Source: Candidatus Woesearchaeota archaeon (GTDB lineage: Archaea; Nanobdellota; Nanobdellia; SCGC-AAA011-G17; GW2011-AR18). Taken from it: DNA of 34,716 nt. The notes below the pieces were generated by a model. That model did not search any database and was not told where the DNA came from. It saw only the letters and a list, made by a program, of their open reading frames with translations. This document shows positions 9,871 to 14,645 of the stretch, piece after piece. The stretch covers positions 1 to 34,716 of the forward strand of contig JAGVZG010000024.1 of the NCBI GenBank assembly GCA_018302765.1, written 5' to 3'. The position numbers and the translations under genes are program-made. The number at the start of each line of letters is the position of its first letter. The first letter of the stretch is position 1.

Positions 9871-12231
9871 TTAAAGATTAATAGCGTACCTCAATATAGC
9901 CCCAACACCACCCAAATCCCTTAATTGCACACCTTCCTTTGTTTCTACACTAACAATAAAAACCTTGGTTCCGACAGCATTAGCTTTTTCCTCAAACTCA
10001 TCTATTCTAGGAAAAGCTTCTGATATTAATATTCTATCAACAGCGCCATAGTCTAAGGCCTTTATAATATCATCAGCTCCATAAAGAACTTTATCAGAAT
10101 TTGTTGATAGCAAAGTAAAAAATTCATTTAAAATTTCCTTCTCCTTTATAATTTCAGCTTCAGCTAGAGTGTCATGTGATTTCTCTACTAACTCATGAAG
10201 GCCTTGCTCATCAGTATAAGTAATATCTTTTATCGCAACAATTTTCTTCTTTAGTTCATTGTGCAAATAATCTCCATTTGCAAAAGTTTCCTTAGTAGGC
10301 CCAGGCCCACCAATTAAAATACCTTTCAAATCTTTGCCTACAGCAGCAAATTCTATATTAGCAACTTCAGCAATTCTTTTGTAAAATTCATTTGCAGCTT
10401 CTTCTCTTAATCTTGCGTAACGTTGCTGACTATTGTGAACTAAAATACCATTAGCAAAGAAATTCTTACCTTGAACACTAATATCAATTAACTCATTTTC
10501 TCCTTCAATAACCTGAATCTTCTTTATCTTAATTGGTATTAAAGGATAATCTACAACTTTCTTTAATTCTTCATATAGTTCAACTTCAGTTTTTAGCCTA
10601 TTTAAGAAAACACGTCCAAATACTCCTTTACTCATTGCTCTCTTATTACATAAAAACATTGATGCGGATTTAAAATCTTGTTTTAAATAACCAAATTGCT
10701 CTATTAATCCTCTAATCCATTTTCCAGAGGGAGTAACCTGTCTAATATTGTTTCTCTCTGTTGTTAATTCTATTAACTTATTCAATTTAACAATTTTATC
10801 TTCAGCAACAAAACCAATATAATTTTTAAAATTAATCAAAGATTCTTTATCAGTAATTCTAATTACCCATTTGCCACGTCCAGCATAGCAAAAAGAACCT
10901 ATAATACTAAACCTTAACAATAATAACCTTACCTGATTAACTAAAGATTTATTCTTCATTGCAATTCCAACTTCATCTTTTACAGGATAAGCTTCAGCAT
11001 CATAAATACCCTTCAAAAAAGAAGCAACAACTTCATTCTTAGATAACATAATTTTTGTCGGAACTAAAGAAGTCTCACAGTATTTCTTTTCTGGGAATTG
11101 ATTTTTAACAAACCTAACAATATTTCTGCTATTAAGTCTTATTTCATAATAATGCTTATCATTCCTATATCTAAAAGAAGGTTTTTTACCAAATATATTA
11201 TAAGTTAAAGATTCATAGTATCTAGCAACATCTTCTCTTTGTTCAACAAGTTCAATCCTATTATCTTTATCATAACTTCCATCCCCAATCATATAACCGA
11301 CAAATCTTGCTAAATCTTCTGTAAGAATTACAGGCAATTTAGTGCTGTTATCGCCTTTATAATTTAATCTTTGTAGTTCTCCATTAAAATCTATTTTTTC
11401 AGGCATTAATAAAAAGTCTTCATCAATTTTTAATTCAGAAGCTGTTTTTTCACTTATTTTACCTTTATTCCATACAAAGAAAGTATGATTTGAAGAAGAA
11501 TCAATTTCTAGTCTTGGATATCCAGTAATAATTTTCAATATTTTTTTGTGTTTAGTTATAGAAGATCCTAAAACTTTTGAATTATTAATTAAAGTATTCT
11601 CAAAATTAAAACCACTGACTATATTATTTTTACTTACTTCTTTAATAGGAACAATTCTACCATCATCTAAATAAACTAAACTTTCAGGATCCAAACACCA
11701 GCCTCCAACCTTAACCTTTCCAGGAACTGAAGAAGTAAAATCTCTAACAACCTGAATACTTTTCCCTCTCAAAAATCCAATTGTAGATTCTCTGTTATCC
11801 ATAACAATCAAGCCATAAATTTCATTAATCTGCATCATTTCTTCTAAAGGACCTAAAACAAAAGTCTGATCGCATCTATACATTCTAACATTCACAGGAA
11901 CAGGAGGTTCAATACTCCAAATCTTAATATCTTGTTTTCCCTCTTGGCTAGCAATATTTCCAGCAAAAGCAGCTAATCCATTTTCAGGAGTCTTGCTATA
12001 CAGTCTCAAATGCCTTATCATTCTTTCCAGAGAATCTTGCACATTTAATCTTGTTGTCTTGTCTTTAATATTAGAAGCAGTCCCTTGTTCCTGAGCTAGA
12101 TGTTGTATAATTTTAATTATATCATAGCCAGCAGGAATATATACGCTGACAAATTCTGTATGTCGTCCTCTATATTGCTTTAACTCATTGACAAATTTCC
12201 TAAGTTTATACTGTTGTTTTGTATCTAGCAT
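9871..12231 (-). CDS. prf1: Archaeal peptide chain release factor aRF1 precursor with an intein (364 aa after splicing)
   Basis: GRHTEFVSVYIP, TASNIKD (NIKS-like), YRCDQTF, GKVKVGGW|SQQRY loop, GGPGPTK, LGGVGAILRY C-terminus. Confidence 0.95.
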   Translation of the reverse strand: MLDTKQQYKLRKFVNELKQYRGRHTEFVSVYIPAGYDIIKIIQHLAQEQGTASNIKDKTTRLNVQDSLERMIRHLRLYSKTPENGLAAFAGNIASQEGKQDIKIWSIEPPVPVNVRMYRCDQTFVLGPLEEMMQINEIYGLIVMDNRESTIGFLRGKSIQVVRDFTSSVPGKVKVGGWCLDPESLVYLDDGRIVPIKEVSKNNIVSGFNFENTLINNSKVLGSSITKHKKILKIITGYPRLEIDSSSNHTFFVWNKGKISEKTASELKIDEDFLLMPEKIDFNGELQRLNYKGDNSTKLPVILTEDLARFVGYMIGDGSYDKDNRIELVEQREDVARYYESLTYNIFGKKPSFRYRNDKHYYEIRLNSRNIVRFVKNQFPEKKYCETSLVPTKIMLSKNEVVASFLKGIYDAEAYPVKDEVGIAMKNKSLVNQVRLLLLRFSIIGSFCYAGRGKWVIRITDKESLINFKNYIGFVAEDKIVKLNKLIELTTERNNIRQVTPSGKWIRGLIEQFGYLKQDFKSASMFLCNKRAMSKGVFGRVFLNRLKTEVELYEELKKVVDYPLIPIKIKKIQVIEGENELIDISVQGKNFFANGILVHNSQQRYARLREEAANEFYKRIAEVANIEFAAVGKDLKGILIGGPGPTKETFANGDYLHNELKKKIVAIKDITYTDEQGLHELVEKSHDTLAEAEIIKEKEILNEFFTLLSTNSDKVLYGADDIIKALDYGAVDRILISEAFPRIDEFEEKANAVGTKVFIVSVETKEGVQLRDLGGVGAILRYAINL
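10432..11697 (-). mobile_element. 422-aa intein with a LAGLIDADG homing endonuclease in aRF1
   Basis: Block A CLDPESLVYLDDG (Cys at 11695-11697); block B SSNH; LAGLIDADG motifs LARFVGYMIGDG and FLKGIYDAEA; blocks F/G DISVQGKNFFANGILVHN; +1 Ser. Confidence 0.97.
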
Positions 12232-12254: not shown

Positions 12255-14645
12255 CTAAAACTCAACCTTAAGTTCTTTTCCATACTCTATTTTTTCTGCC
12301 TGAATTACTGCTTTAAGGTCATTTTCAACATTGTTTAAAATAAGATTATCAACTGTCAATACCTTAATTGGCTCTTTAAGAGACTTTAAATTTTTAGCTT
12401 TTTCCTGTCTGACAAAGCCTATAACTCTAACAAATTCATCTCCTACCTCAACAAATCTCTCATCTAACTTAAACTTCAAAACAGGCCAGTTACTAATATG
12501 AACACTTTCTTTATTCTCAATATTTATAAACATATTTTGATAAATCTCCTCTGTAACATAAGGCATGATTGGTGCAAACAATTTTATTATGTTCAAAAAG
12601 CAAATATGTAATGTGTACAAGGCACTCTCTTTGCCTTTAGTTAATTTTTCTGAATACAGCCTGTATTTAATAAACTCTAAATAATTATCACAAAAATCCT
12701 TCCAGAAAAATAATTCTATTGCACATTTAGCTTTGCTGTACTCGTAAGATTCAAAACTTTCAGTGCATACTTTAATAGTATTCTCTAATTTATGTAATAT
12801 CCATTGATCAATAATCTCAAGTTCTACTTTTTTTAATTTATAATTACCAAAATGAGATTTGCAAAACTTGTAGGCATTCCAAAGTTTATTTATTGTTCTT
12901 TGCCCAGTTAATAAATCCTTCTCCAAATACCTTAGATCATCTCCCAATTTAGAACCTGCTGCCCAAAACCTAAGAGCGTCTGCAGAGAATTTATCTAAAA
13001 CTTGTGCAGGTTCAATTACATTGCCCTTGGATTTATGCATTGCCTCGCCCTTAGGATCTAAAACATGACCAGAAATAACAATATTTTTCCAAGGCACTTC
13101 ATCATTGTGATAAATACCTTTAACTACTGTATAAAAAGCCCATGTCCTAATTATATCATGAGCCTGAGGCCTTAAACTGCAAGGATATAACTTCTTAAAT
13201 TCTAAATCATAAACACCATCCTTTGCCCAATTCAAAATTATTTGTGGAGTAACACTGGAAGTTGCCCATGTATCCATAACGTCATTTTCTCCTTCAAAGC
13301 TGCTAGAACTGCATTTGCATTTTTTCTTAGGCTTATCAACTAAAGGATCAACAGGTAAATTATTTTCTTCAGCAACAATAACACTTCCGCATTTCTTACA
13401 ATTCCAAACTGGAAAAGAAATTCCAAAATGCCTCTGCCTGCTTATGCACCAATCCCATTGCAGTCCTTCAATCCAATGTTCATATCTTAACTTCATAAAC
13501 TCTGGATGCCATTTTATTTTTCTGCCTGCATCCACAAACTTTTTTTTATTGTCTAAAACTTTAATGAACCACTGTTTTGTGCTTAGAAATTCTACCTCAA
13601 TTCCGCATCTCTCATGAACATTAACTATGTGTTTTATGGGTTTCTTAGAAACTAATAAATTCTCTTTTTCTAAGTCATTTAATATTTCCTTTCTAGCTTC
13701 CTTTATGTTCAAGCCTTCATACTTGCCAGCAAGCCCATTTAATTTACCATCTCTAGTAAAAATCACTCTAGGCTCCAATTTTCTTTTCTTTATTGCTTCC
13801 ACATCGTACTTATCACCATAACTACAAATCATTAACATTCCAGTTCCTTTCTCAGGATTGGCAGACTCATCAGCAAATATAGGAACATTATAATTGAACA
13901 AAGGAACTATTGCTTTTTTCCCAACATACCTTTTGTATCTTTTGTCATCTGGGTGAACATAAACACAAACACAAGCTCCGAGTAATTCAGGCCTTGTAGT
14001 TGCTATAACTATCTTGCTATCATCTTCCAATTTAAAGTTAACATCATTAAAAGTAGAGTCTAGTTCTTTGTCCTCTAAATCTGCCTGCGCAATTGCAGTC
14101 TGACAATGAACACACCACATTGTCGGCGCTTCTCTTTGATAAACTAAATTTTTTTTAAATAAATCAATAAAAGATTTCTGAGAAGTTCTTCTGCAATGTT
14201 TATCTATAGTAGAATAAGCATTAGAAAAATCACAACTCATACCTATTACCTTCCAATCATTTATAAAATCATCTTTAATTTCCTTAATTGTTTTTTCGCA
14301 TAGCTTAACAAAATCCTGCCTGCTCATTTTAGTAGATTTAACATTCTTTAGTCTTTCAACTAATCTTTCTGTAGGCAAACCATTATCGTCTGTACCAAAT
14401 GGATAAAAAACACCTTCTCCTTTCATCCTGTGGTATCTGACAATAAAATCTTGCTGAGAATAACTAAAAGCATGTCCTATATGCATCTTGCCAGAAACGG
14501 TTGGAGGTGGAGTATCAACTACAAAGGGCTTAGATTTTGATTTAGCATTAAACTTATAGACTCCTTTAGATTCCCAAAACTTTCTCCATTTAGTTTCTAT
14601 AACTTTATAATTATAAACATCATTCGAGTTCATAAAAAAATACAA
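12255..14645 (-). CDS. valS: Valyl-tRNA synthetase (archaeal type)
   Basis: DTPPPTVSGKMHIGH, WDWCISRQR, DVMDTWATS, RPQAHDIIRTW; the KMSKS position reads AMHKS. The start may be the ATG at 14633. Confidence 0.97.
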   Translation of the reverse strand: MYFFMNSNDVYNYKVIETKWRKFWESKGVYKFNAKSKSKPFVVDTPPPTVSGKMHIGHAFSYSQQDFIVRYHRMKGEGVFYPFGTDDNGLPTERLVERLKNVKSTKMSRQDFVKLCEKTIKEIKDDFINDWKVIGMSCDFSNAYSTIDKHCRRTSQKSFIDLFKKNLVYQREAPTMWCVHCQTAIAQADLEDKELDSTFNDVNFKLEDDSKIVIATTRPELLGACVCVYVHPDDKRYKRYVGKKAIVPLFNYNVPIFADESANPEKGTGMLMICSYGDKYDVEAIKKRKLEPRVIFTRDGKLNGLAGKYEGLNIKEARKEILNDLEKENLLVSKKPIKHIVNVHERCGIEVEFLSTKQWFIKVLDNKKKFVDAGRKIKWHPEFMKLRYEHWIEGLQWDWCISRQRHFGISFPVWNCKKCGSVIVAEENNLPVDPLVDKPKKKCKCSSSSFEGENDVMDTWATSSVTPQIILNWAKDGVYDLEFKKLYPCSLRPQAHDIIRTWAFYTVVKGIYHNDEVPWKNIVISGHVLDPKGEAMHKSKGNVIEPAQVLDKFSADALRFWAAGSKLGDDLRYLEKDLLTGQRTINKLWNAYKFCKSHFGNYKLKKVELEIIDQWILHKLENTIKVCTESFESYEYSKAKCAIELFFWKDFCDNYLEFIKYRLYSEKLTKGKESALYTLHICFLNIIKLFAPIMPYVTEEIYQNMFINIENKESVHISNWPVLKFKLDERFVEVGDEFVRVIGFVRQEKAKNLKSLKEPIKVLTVDNLILNNVENDLKAVIQAEKIEYGKELKVEF

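What the first reader, a model, noticed from the sequence alone, without database searches (positions are those of the whole stretch)
11698..11724. Universal GGQ motif of the class-1 release factor reads GGW (GKVKVGGW|SQQRY)
Seen: the codon before the intein is TGG (11698-11700), at least two changes from any Gln codon, so not a single base-call error. The rest of the protein looks intact (NIKD, YxCxxxF) and genes in the window end in TAA, TAG and TGA. Established: GGQ is conserved in class-1 release factors of all domains and its Gln is methylated. Inference: either catalysis uses a Gln shifted to +2/+3 (SQQ), as I recall for GGWSQ-type loops in VLRF1/baeRF1 relatives, or termination tolerates Trp, or the change arose with intein homing. 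Any of these would be unusual for a housekeeping aRF1 next to valS.
Basis: partly seen in the sequence, partly recalled or inferred. Interest (0 to 1): 0.82.

Follow-up and report, generated by a model that had tools for sequence, protein, structure and literature searches.

The report
Release factor with GGW, not GGQ
The only stop-codon release factor of this tiny Woesearchaeales (DPANN) archaeon really has tryptophan where release factors are said to carry a universal catalytic glutamine. The change is inherited and under selection, arose several times, has nothing to do with the intein beside it, and goes with loss of the enzyme that methylates that glutamine.

Summary
Observation confirmed. 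The aRF1 gene (window 9871-12231, minus strand) reads PGKVKVGGW, then a 422-aa LAGLIDADG intein, then SQQRY. TGG lies at 11698-11700.

- **Only copy.** It is the only aRF1-like gene in a 1.02-Mb genome rated 100% complete. No bacterial-type RF domain and no pelota were found.
- **Under selection.** Exteins have dN/dS of 0.04-0.11, and all three stop codons are in use.
- **Not caused by the intein.** Intein-less orthologues next to valS read GGWSQQRY or GGFSQARY, and 83 relatives carry the same intein after a normal GGQ.
- **Distribution in the order.** Of 200 typed genomes, 183 are GGQ, 8 GGW, 8 GGF and 1 GGY. A tree needs at least 4-5 independent changes, and one clade of all aromatic forms is rejected (p-AU 1e-5).
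- **Mtq2.** No intact Mtq2 Gln-methyltransferase was found in 0/17 aromatic genomes, against hits in 162/183 GGQ genomes. In an Aenigmatarchaeota sample the figures are 0/44 against 48/54.
- **Other archaea.** GGW is also the sole aRF1 in four other archaeal genomes checked (two Desulfurococcales, one Aenigmatarchaeota chromosome, one Micrarchaeota).

Best reading: a working release factor in which a bulky hydrophobic residue replaces methyl-Gln. Gln at +2 (the GGxSQ loop of Vms1-like factors) may help, but some GGW factors lack it.

This scan found GGW aRF1 at least eight times before on other DNA. I found no paper describing it.

The parts
9871..12231 (-). aRF1 precursor gene (786 aa plus TAA stop): N-extein, intein, C-extein
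   Evidence: ORF. Pfam eRF1_1, eRF1_2, eRF1_3, Intein_splicing and LAGLIDADG_3. TIGR03676 scores 409.9 bits against a cut-off of 234.7. It is the only aRF1-like locus in the genome.
11698..12231 (-). N-extein, aa 1-178 (N domain plus the first part of the M domain), ending ...PGKVKVGGW
   Evidence: TIGR03676 positions 1-172 match here at 226.6 bits. dN/dS is 0.06-0.11 against G001, G004 and G006.
12061..12072 (-). NIKD (aa 54-57), the NIKS-type stop-codon recognition motif
   Evidence: Sequence and coordinates.
11860..11880 (-). YRCDQTF (aa 118-124), the YxCxxxF motif of the N domain
11698..11706 (-). GGA GGC TGG = Gly176 Gly177 Trp178. The position of the universal GGQ reads GGW, and Trp is the -1 extein residue.
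   Evidence: W aligns with Q of solved aRF1 structures.
10432..11697 (-). Class-1 intein with a LAGLIDADG homing-endonuclease domain, 422 aa (Cys1 ... SSNH block B ... HN)
   Evidence: Pfam Intein_splicing 55.6 bits and LAGLIDADG_3 65.2 bits. Boundaries. dN/dS is 0.19-0.26, more relaxed than the exteins.
9871..10431 (-). C-extein, aa 601-786 (rest of the M domain plus the C domain) and the TAA stop
   Evidence: TIGR03676 positions 174-314 and 360-402 match here. dN/dS is 0.04-0.11.
10417..10431 (-). SQQRY (aa 601-605). Ser601 is the +1 splice nucleophile. Gln602 is the '+2' Gln of the spliced GGWSQ loop. Tyr605 replaces the usual Phe.
   Evidence: S-Q-x-R-Y is invariant in aromatic-loop Woesearchaeales aRF1.
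12255..14645 (-). valS, the conserved upstream neighbour (context showing orthology)
   Evidence: The same valS-aRF1 arrangement is seen in the GGW locus L011 and the GGF locus L013.

Best explanation
SHOWN. The gene is the genome's single class-1 release factor. It is an orthologue of the GGQ-bearing aRF1 of related Woesearchaeales and is interrupted by an intein exactly in the catalytic loop. After splicing the loop reads GGWSQQRY. Trp at the Gln position is an inherited trait under purifying selection. It is shared with intein-less orthologues, replaced by Phe or Tyr in other lineages, and arose at least 4-5 times in this order.

INFERRED. The spliced protein is the working terminator for all three stop codons. 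Peptidyl-tRNA hydrolysis relies on what structural work on bacterial factors puts at the centre of catalysis. That is the GG-dependent placement of the loop in the peptidyl-transferase centre and the main-chain NH of the residue after GG. In this reading the large hydrophobic side chain (W, F or Y; M elsewhere) takes over the packing and water-selecting role normally played by N5-methyl-Gln. The methyltransferase Mtq2 then has no substrate and is lost, which suits a streamlined genome. Gln602 (+2) and Tyr605 (+5) form the background on which every change in this order occurred. They probably help, by coordinating water or as a permissive context, but they are not indispensable everywhere.
For: - **Single copy.** No second eRF1_2, TIGR03676 or pelota hit and no bacterial RF-1 domain turned up in a genome rated 100% complete. 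The near-closed GGF genome G030 (2 contigs) also has one aRF1, as does the Aenigmatarchaeota chromosome CP070804 with GGW.
- **Function retained.** Extein dN/dS is 0.04-0.11 with dS of 0.9-1.7. NIKD and YxCxxxF are kept. TAA, TGA and TAG are all in use.
- **Orthology.** valS synteny. The gene is nested among GGQ aRF1 in a tree built without the loop columns.
- **Recurrence.** The tree needs 5 changes, at least 4 of them forced by well-supported branches. The AU test rejects one aromatic clade (lnL difference 162, p 1e-5).
- **Residue spectrum.** In the order: W 8, F 8, Y 1. In the Aenigmatarchaeota sample: W 39, M 2, Y 2, A 1. Nearly all are bulky hydrophobic residues.
- **Mtq2 (TIGR00537).** In the order, 0/17 aromatic genomes have an intact orthologue: 11 have no hit, 4 have only other methyltransferases, and 2 have an orthologue with NPPY changed to NAPY. 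By contrast 162/183 GGQ genomes have a hit. In the Aenigmatarchaeota sample the figures are 0/44 against 48/54. On independent pairs the direction agrees 4 of 4 times.
- **Gln at +2 not always needed.** GGWSAN occurs four times and GGWSAS once.
- **Literature.** The main-chain amide of the Gln is held to be critical, Q-to-P abolishes release, and the side chain gives packing that selects water (PMC4691834; PMC6742477). H. volcanii Mtq2 methylates Gln187 of the aRF1 GGQ, and Y111A in NPPY kills the activity (PMC6144793).
Against: - No biochemical or structural data exist for any GGW aRF1.
- Yeast and E. coli work is cited in the papers read as showing that GGQ is required (Song 2000 and Mora 2003, as cited in PMC4691834).
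- In Woesearchaeales Q at +2 is invariant (37/37 and 11/11), which fits the rival shifted-Gln reading at least as well.
- The Mtq2 association has too few independent contrasts for significance (4 pairs, p = 0.125).
- 21 GGQ genomes also lack a hit, mostly incomplete bins.
- The 23S rRNA of this genome is not assembled, so its peptidyl-transferase centre is unseen.
- The genome is a metagenome bin, so a missing gene is 'not found', not 'absent'.
Confidence: 0.55

Rival explanations
1. Register shift. The catalytic amide is still a glutamine, but it is Gln602, two residues downstream (G-G-x-S-Q). [quoted passage not shown] The flexible Gly-Gly would let the loop reach two residues further, and Trp would be a spacer or stacking residue.
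For: - S-Q follows the aromatic residue in every Woesearchaeales case: 37/37 database clusters, 11/11 intein-less genomes and 5/5 spliced intein alleles. Only 46/83 GGQ relatives have Q at +2, and position +3 varies among Q, A, G and R.
- Nearest GGQ relatives of the aromatic lineages have Q at +2, e.g. G125, G166, G167 and G020.
- GGxSQ is the published motif of aVLRF-1 and acVLRF-1, predicted active hydrolases (PMC6514570).
- In Actinomycetota baeRF-type proteins x is W.
- 39 of 44 non-GGQ Aenigmatarchaeota aRF1 also keep SQ.
Against: - GGWSAN (G247, G270, G331, G351) and GGWSAS (G253) have no Gln at +2.
- The loop has the same length as in GGQ factors. There is no insertion, whereas the paper says VLRF-1 loops are longer.
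- If Gln602 played the role of the canonical Gln, one might expect its methyltransferase to be kept, yet Mtq2 is gone.
- Phylogenetic inertia could explain the invariance within one order.
Confidence: 0.27
2. Division of labour. This aRF1 only recognises stop codons and recruits partners, while hydrolysis is done by another protein. That protein could be an unassembled canonical RF, an unrecognised GGQ protein, or help from the host, since DPANN are often episymbionts.
For: The genome is a bin of 28 contigs. rRNA genes are missing from it, which shows that some essential genes are unassembled. Four related bins show no aRF1 at all.
Against: - No eRF1-family, pelota or RF-1 domain was found elsewhere in a bin rated 100% complete.
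- Near-closed and closed genomes with GGF or GGW also have one aRF1.
- The GG pair and the whole M domain remain under strong constraint. That would be pointless for a loop with no catalytic job.
- The same loop is the sole aRF1 in free-living Desulfurococcales such as Zestosphaera tikiterensis.
Confidence: 0.06
3. Changed chemistry. Like the endonuclease activity proposed by some for Vms1/ANKZF1, the factor releases the chain by cutting the tRNA 3' end rather than hydrolysing the ester.
For: The only support is the loop's resemblance to GGxSQ and GxuQ factors. The nuclease proposal for these factors is mentioned, and disputed, in PMC6514570.
Against: Every termination event would damage a tRNA, which is costly for a housekeeping factor. 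The protein is otherwise a canonical aRF1. Burroughs and Aravind argue for hydrolase activity in the VLRF families.
Confidence: 0.03
4. Artefact or decay: a sequencing or assembly error, a pseudogene, or a by-product of intein homing.
For: Reads could not be inspected. The residue lies directly at an intein junction.
Against: The same codon is found in independent assemblies of 8 species and in 23 database clusters. The frame is open, with dN/dS of 0.04-0.11. Intein-less alleles carry W or F, and intein-bearing alleles elsewhere carry Q.
Confidence: 0.01

Closest known systems
Canonical archaeal aRF1 / eukaryotic eRF1 (NCBIfam TIGR03676; Pfam eRF1_1/2/3; solved examples 4AF1 Halobacterium salinarum, 3AGK/3VMF Aeropyrum pernix, 5LZU mammalian)
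   Same: Three-domain architecture, NIKS-type and YxCxxxF motifs, the Gly-Gly pair, loop length and the downstream R-[FY]-x-R-L-R helix. The family score is well above the cut-off (409.9 bits). It is the single housekeeping copy next to valS, and it nests within GGQ orthologues in the tree.
   Different: The Gln of GGQ is Trp, with Phe or Tyr in sister lineages. Its methyltransferase Mtq2 is missing. Gln at +2 and Tyr at +5 are fixed. A homing-endonuclease intein splits the loop between W and S.
aVLRF-1 and acVLRF-1 (Vms1-like release factor families) and baeRF family 10 (Burroughs and Aravind 2019, PMC6514570; Pfam PF18859, PF18854)
   Same: The catalytic-loop motif G-G-x-S-Q. In Actinomycetota members found here the loop is literally PGKHDQGGWSQARY.
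   Different: The window's protein keeps the stop-codon recognition domain motifs and the C-terminal eRF1_3 domain, and has no N-terminal coiled coil. It scores below the acVLRF1 cut-offs (24.8 against 27.1 bits; 20.9 against 125). It is a canonical aRF1 that converged on the loop, not a member of those families.
Pelota / Dom34 (TIGR00111)
   Same: Same superfamily, and also lacks the catalytic Gln.
   Different: Pelota has a different Sm-like N domain, a poorly conserved loop and no Gly-Gly constraint. The window's protein scores 92.5 bits against a cut-off of 177.65 and has the eRF1_1 domain.
Laboratory GGQ mutants of RF1/RF2/eRF1 (Shaw and Green 2007; Santos et al. 2013, Q253P; as summarised in PMC4691834 and PMC6742477)
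   Same: These studies put the main-chain amide at the centre of catalysis, with the Gln side chain giving packing and nucleophile selection. A natural non-Gln factor is therefore chemically conceivable.
   Different: Those are engineered bacterial or eukaryotic proteins assayed in vitro. Here the replacement is natural, fixed, recurrent, and is the cell's only release factor.
GGW aRF1 noted earlier by this scan in Aenigmatarchaeota, Thermoprotei and other DPANN (notes e1-944768, e1-1066486, e1-5226983, e1-5044408 and others)
   Same: The same loop, the same single-copy status, and the same loss of Mtq2 in one of those reports (re-tested).
   Different: This is a different order (Woesearchaeales). 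It has W, F and Y forms, several independent origins inside one order, and an intein inserted exactly between the variant residue and Ser +1.

Membership tests
aRF1/eRF1 class-1 release factor (TIGR03676; Pfam eRF1_1/2/3) | Three-domain architecture and a family score above the curated cut-off | tested here: met
   eRF1_1 58.4, eRF1_2 120.5 and eRF1_3 74.0 bits. TIGR03676 scores 409.9 bits against a cut-off of 234.7.
aRF1/eRF1 class-1 release factor (TIGR03676; Pfam eRF1_1/2/3) | Stop-codon recognition motifs NIKS-type and YxCxxxF in the N domain | tested here: met
   TASNIKD (aa 51-57) and YRCDQTF (aa 118-124).
aRF1/eRF1 class-1 release factor (TIGR03676; Pfam eRF1_1/2/3) | GGQ motif at the tip of the M domain | tested here: not met
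   The motif reads GGW, and W aligns with Q of 4AF1 and 3AGK. I therefore file the protein as an orthologue by descent and a new variant of the kind, not as a textbook member.
aRF1/eRF1 class-1 release factor (TIGR03676; Pfam eRF1_1/2/3) | Orthology: single housekeeping copy, conserved neighbourhood, nested among GGQ orthologues | tested here: met
   Only locus in the genome. valS-aRF1 synteny. Tree.
aRF1/eRF1 class-1 release factor (TIGR03676; Pfam eRF1_1/2/3) | Stop-codon-dependent peptidyl-tRNA hydrolysis on the ribosome | not testable with these tools
   Only indirect evidence: purifying selection and no alternative factor found.
aVLRF-1 / acVLRF-1 (Vms1-like release factors) | GGxSQ catalytic-loop motif | tested here: met
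   The spliced loop is GGWSQ. The motif is as stated in PMC6514570.
aVLRF-1 / acVLRF-1 (Vms1-like release factors) | Family architecture (aVLRF-1: no C-terminal pelota-type domain and an N-terminal coiled coil; acVLRF-1: no stop-codon domain) and a family score above the cut-off | tested here: not met
   eRF1_1 and eRF1_3 are present. PF18859 scores 24.8 against 27.1, and NF041024 scores 20.9 against 125. Architecture as described in PMC6514570.
Pelota/Dom34 | TIGR00111 score above the cut-off and an Sm-like N domain | tested here: not met
   92.5 bits against 177.65, and the match covers only the M and C domains.
Class-1 intein with LAGLIDADG homing endonuclease | Cys1, block-B (T/S)xxH, C-terminal His-Asn, Ser/Thr/Cys at +1, and an endonuclease domain | tested here: met
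   CLDPES..., SSNH...ILVHN then S. Intein_splicing scores 55.6 against 35.8, and LAGLIDADG_3 scores 65.2 against 22.5. Splicing itself is not testable.
Mtq2 (archaeal HemK-related Gln-N5 methyltransferase, TIGR00537) present in the genome | A hit at or above the 87-bit cut-off, with the MIYEP...FNPPYLP...SSLTG signature | tested here: not met
   The best hit in G000 is 45.6 bits, has a TAG inside, and is a different NPPQ-type methyltransferase. A query with the G030 Mtq2-like protein found nothing.

The most novel reading that the evidence does not exclude
There are two natural designs of the release-factor active loop. Besides GG-(methyl)Gln, archaea have repeatedly evolved GG-aromatic-Ser-Gln-x-Arg-Tyr. 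In this design the amide-bearing residue sits two positions later, as in Vms1-like rescue factors, and needs no Mtq2 methylation. The 'universal' GGQ and its 'universal' methylation would then both be dispensable for canonical stop-codon termination in living cells.
Probability: 0.3. Interest if true: 0.9.

Novelty: new variant of a known kind. Interest (0 to 1): 0.8.

Why it matters
[quoted passage not shown] A sole, selected release factor without that Gln, arising several times and always without intact Mtq2, is a natural experiment on a long-running question. Does the Gln side chain take part in catalysis, or does it only pack the active site and select water?

The finding gives ready-made variants (W, F, Y, M, with and without Gln at +2) for release assays and cryo-EM. 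It links canonical termination factors to the GGxSQ loop of Vms1-like rescue factors. It also warns annotation pipelines and motif-based screens not to call such genes defective. The intein between W and S adds a case where the catalytic loop exists only after protein splicing.

Tried and rejected
- **Second release factor.** eRF1_2, TIGR03676, pelota and the bacterial RF-1 domain were searched in the whole genome. Nothing was found beyond this gene.
- **Intein as cause.** Rejected.
- **23S rRNA co-variation.** The genome has no 23S assembled. In two GGF genomes (G030, G169) compared with two GGQ genomes (G025, G107), A2451, A2503-U2506, U2584/U2585 and A2602 are the same. Positions 2452/2453 vary without any link to the loop: the GGQ genome G025 has U2452. 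With 2 against 2 genomes this says little, and I made no claim from it.
- **Weak TIGR00537 hits in aromatic genomes.** Alignment shows they are other methyltransferases, except in G030 and G169.
- **Independent-contrast test of Mtq2 loss.** The direction is right 4 of 4 times, but there are too few pairs for significance.
- **Primary papers.** Shaw and Green 2007 and Santos 2013 are not held, so I cite them only through papers that summarise them.
- **Solved structure with a GGWSQ loop.** None exists. The nearest, Balon 8V9J, has a different loop.
- **Literature searches.** Searches for GGWSQ, GGW or GGF motifs, for GGQ with DPANN or Woesearchaeota, and for GGQ with aRF1 and tryptophan found nothing relevant. 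The Thermoprotei ribosome preprint 10.1101/2024.11.12.623245 does not mention release factors.
- **Bias.** The genome contigs pattern forced S-Q, so it cannot be used to judge the invariance of Gln at +2. I used unforced patterns for that.
- **Not run.** No structure prediction or complex prediction, because neither can place the loop in an rRNA active site.
Full report
**The sequence**

On the minus strand of window 9871-12231 lies a 786-codon frame. It reads ...SVPGKVKVGGW, then CLDPES...GILVHN, then SQQRYARLREEAANEFYKR...

- The codon before the Cys is TGG at 11698-11700. The finding's range 11698-11724 is PGKVKVGGW.
- Pfam finds eRF1 domains 1, 2 and 3, an intein splicing domain and a LAGLIDADG domain.
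- The NCBIfam aRF1 equivalog scores 409.9 bits against a cut-off of 234.7.
- The aRF1 model matches positions 1-172 up to the junction and resumes at position 174 right after the insert. The 422-aa intein (Cys1, SSNH, His-Asn, Ser +1) therefore sits exactly after the residue that should be the Gln of GGQ.
- In alignments of an intein-less orthologue to solved aRF1 structures, the Trp aligns with that Gln, with no gap: 4AF1 ggqsaqrf and 3AGK ggqsqrry against ggwsqqry.

**Is it the working release factor?**

- The assembly has 1.02 Mb in 28 contigs and is rated 100% complete. It holds no other match to eRF1 domain 2, to the aRF1 model or to pelota, and no bacterial RF-1 domain.
- Against three relatives the exteins give dN/dS of 0.04-0.11 at dS of about 0.9-1.7. 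The intein is more relaxed, at 0.19-0.26.
- NIKD and YRCDQTF are intact.
- Long open frames in the genome end in TAA (329), TGA (86) and TAG (56).
- The gene lies next to valS, as do its orthologues.

Nothing suggests decay or a spare copy.

**The intein is not the cause**

Among 40 relatives, intein-less orthologues read GGWSQQRY (L011, L012) or GGFSQARY/GGFSQQRY (L013, L014, L016, L026, L029).

Of the 120 nearest clusters in the protein collection, named Woesearchaeota or Nanoarchaeia by their sources, 83 are GGQ, 23 are GGW (10 with the intein) and 14 are GGF.

I scanned all 240 genomes of the order with two DNA patterns that leave the codon free. This typed 200 genomes:

| Loop | Genomes | Notes |
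|---|---|---|
| GGQ | 183 | 83 have an intein at this same site |
| GGW | 8 | 6 with the intein, 2 without |
| GGF | 8 | |
| GGY | 1 | |

The intein is a common tenant of the site whatever the residue before it.

**Several origins**

I built a maximum-likelihood tree of 49 aRF1 with inteins removed and the loop columns left out. It puts the window's protein in a well-supported GGW clade, inside an 11-member W/F clade of its own family. It places the other aromatic forms elsewhere: G029; G165; G030 with G169; and G119 (GGY) as sister of the GGQ genome G125. Five changes are needed, and at least four are forced by well-supported branches.

Forcing all aromatic sequences into one clade costs 162 log-likelihood units (p-AU 1e-5). 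The group was defined by the loop, not by the tree, but I had seen the tree first.

Codons are TGG, TTY and TAC. Q to W and W to F each need two base changes, so other residues were passed through on the way (inference).

**A fixed context**

- Every aromatic Woesearchaeales loop is followed by S-Q-x-R-Y: 37/37 clusters, 11/11 intein-less genomes and 5/5 spliced intein alleles.
- Only 16 of 83 GGQ relatives have both Gln +2 and Tyr +5, while position +3 varies.
- The nearest GGQ relatives of the aromatic lineages have Q at +2.
- The window's protein is not one of those families. It keeps the stop-codon domain and the C-terminal domain and scores below their cut-offs.

**The methyltransferase goes with the glutamine**

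Mtq2 methylates the Gln of aRF1 in Haloferax, needs its NPPY motif, and is said to occur in all archaea (PMC6144793). Searching its NCBIfam model (TIGR00537) gave the following.

*In the order:*
- 162 of 183 GGQ genomes have a hit at E of 1e-18 or better. Most of the 21 without a hit are incomplete bins.
- 11 of the 17 aromatic genomes have no hit, and 6 have only weak hits.

*What the weak hits are:*
- Those in G002, G006, G023 and G015 are other methyltransferases.
- G030 and G169 keep a true orthologue whose NPPY has become NAPY.
- The window's genome has nothing better than 45.6 bits against a cut-off of 87.

*Independent contrasts:* Mtq2 goes the same way in 4 of 4 pairs, too few for significance (p = 0.125).

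*An independent sample of 151 genomes from the phylum of an Aenigmatarchaeota chromosome:*
- 48 of 54 GGQ genomes have Mtq2.
- 0 of 44 non-GGQ genomes have it (39 W, 2 M, 2 Y, 1 A).

Loss without replacement does occur, for example in G020 and in families f3 and f24. An aromatic loop with intact Mtq2 was not seen in 61 genomes.

**Wider distribution**

A pattern scan of one genome per prokaryote species found 111 loci with PGKxxxGG[WFY]SQxRY.

- The archaeal loci come from many Aenigmatarchaeota, from Desulfurococcales and Sulfolobales (PGKHS[RK]GGWSQRRY), from Micrarchaeota, from a Nitrososphaerota genome and from Nanoarchaeia.
- The six archaeal representatives scanned are true aRF1 by score, at 332-499 bits.
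- In four of five whole genomes checked it is the only aRF1: a Desulfurococcales bin, Zestosphaera tikiterensis NZ3, the Aenigmatarchaeota chromosome CP070804 and a Micrarchaeota bin. The Nitrososphaerota genome has a second, intein-bearing copy.
- Bacterial hits are baeRF-type proteins with the same loop.

**A limit on the shifted-Gln idea**

In the unforced Aenigmatarchaeota scan, five GGW factors read GGWSAN or GGWSAS, with no Gln at +2. I did not verify that these are sole copies.

**Mechanism**

The papers I could read state the following (PMC4691834; PMC6742477):
- The two glycines adopt a backbone conformation no other residue can.
- The main-chain amide of the Gln is critical, and Q to P abolishes release.
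- The side chain, helped by methylation, packs the pocket so that water is the nucleophile.

On that basis the most economical reading is that the GGW factor is catalytically competent through its backbone and the rRNA. A bulky hydrophobic side chain would stand in for methyl-Gln in packing. That would also explain why nearly all replacements are W, F, Y or M and why Mtq2 becomes useless.

Gln +2 may assist or may have been the permissive background. The rival view, that it is the true catalytic residue in a shifted register, fits the Woesearchaeales data equally well but not the GGWSAN/GGWSAS factors or the unchanged loop length.

The rest goes to a hidden second factor, altered chemistry or artefact. 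All mechanistic steps are inference. None was tested.

**What could not be checked**

- Reads could not be inspected.
- The genome's own 23S rRNA is not assembled.
- Splicing and release activity could not be tested.
- In two GGF and two GGQ relatives the core peptidyl-transferase nucleotides are the same, and second-shell differences do not track the loop.

**Novelty**

- I found no paper that reports a natural aRF1 without the GGQ Gln.
- No solved structure carries a GGWSQ loop.
- This scan has reported GGW aRF1 at least eight times on other genomes, once with Mtq2 loss. A later check there rejected a claim of rRNA co-evolution.
- This window adds a further order. Within it there are W, F and Y forms, statistically supported multiple origins and a degenerate Mtq2 (NAPY) caught in two species. 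An intein is inserted between the variant residue and Ser +1.

I class it as a new variant of a known kind, of high interest.

Noticed in passing
window 10432-11697 (-); order-wide: An intein occupies the site right after the GGQ/GGW residue in about 89 of 200 typed Woesearchaeales genomes. It occurs as mini-inteins (130-144 aa) and as full-length LAGLIDADG forms (359-431 aa). The catalytic loop of the release factor exists only after splicing.
   Followed up: partly
whole genome G000 (window is contig C9): No pelota/Dom34 was found. TIGR00111 matches only the aRF1 gene. No 23S rRNA is assembled.
   Followed up: partly
G005 (98% complete), G017, G011, G003 (same family as the window's genome): No aRF1 at all was found with the N-extein protein or with TIGR03676. 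G019 has only a contig-end fragment. The cause may be assembly breaks at intein-bearing genes, but this is unexplained.
   Followed up: no
L037:295-870 (G030) and L200 (G169): The Mtq2 orthologue in two GGF species has its NPPY catalytic motif changed to NAPY, yet is 92% identical between the two species. It is either decaying slowly or has been put to another use.
   Followed up: partly
L039 (G006), L040 (G002), L041 (G023): A distinct 227-244 aa methyltransferase (VFYP..DTELL..NPPYSD..DKDH..WSNFADF) is the best TIGR00537 hit in several GGW/GGF genomes. Its substrate is unknown, and its presence in GGQ genomes was not checked.
   Followed up: no
L080, L101, L102, L126, L127, L135, L169 (Actinomycetota, Gaiellaceae, Binatia) and L076 (Patescibacteria): Bacterial eRF1-superfamily proteins carry the identical loop, PGKHDQGGWSQARY or PGKHKMGGWSQTRY. 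The two scanned, L080 and L076, hit baeRF family 10 in Pfam and score far below the cut-offs of the ribosome-hibernation-factor models in NCBIfam.
   Followed up: partly
G243 (Nitrososphaerota chromosome OY969807): L190 and L191/L192: This genome has two aRF1 paralogues: a GGWSQRRY copy (331 bits) and a second copy in a 929-aa frame that looks intein-bearing. It would be a natural place to compare the two loop designs in one cell.
   Followed up: no
L197 (G107 23S rRNA): The alignment of the peptidyl-transferase region breaks right after ...GGGTTCAGAACGTC (about E. coli position 2594). This suggests an intron or insertion in the 23S gene.
   Followed up: no
G247, G270, G331, G351 (GGWSAN), G253 (GGWSAS), G287 (GGASQRRY), G264 and G361 (GGMSQ): Further loop variants occur in the Aenigmatarchaeota sample, including GGW without Gln at +2, and GGA and GGM forms. 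I did not check whether they are sole copies.
   Followed up: no
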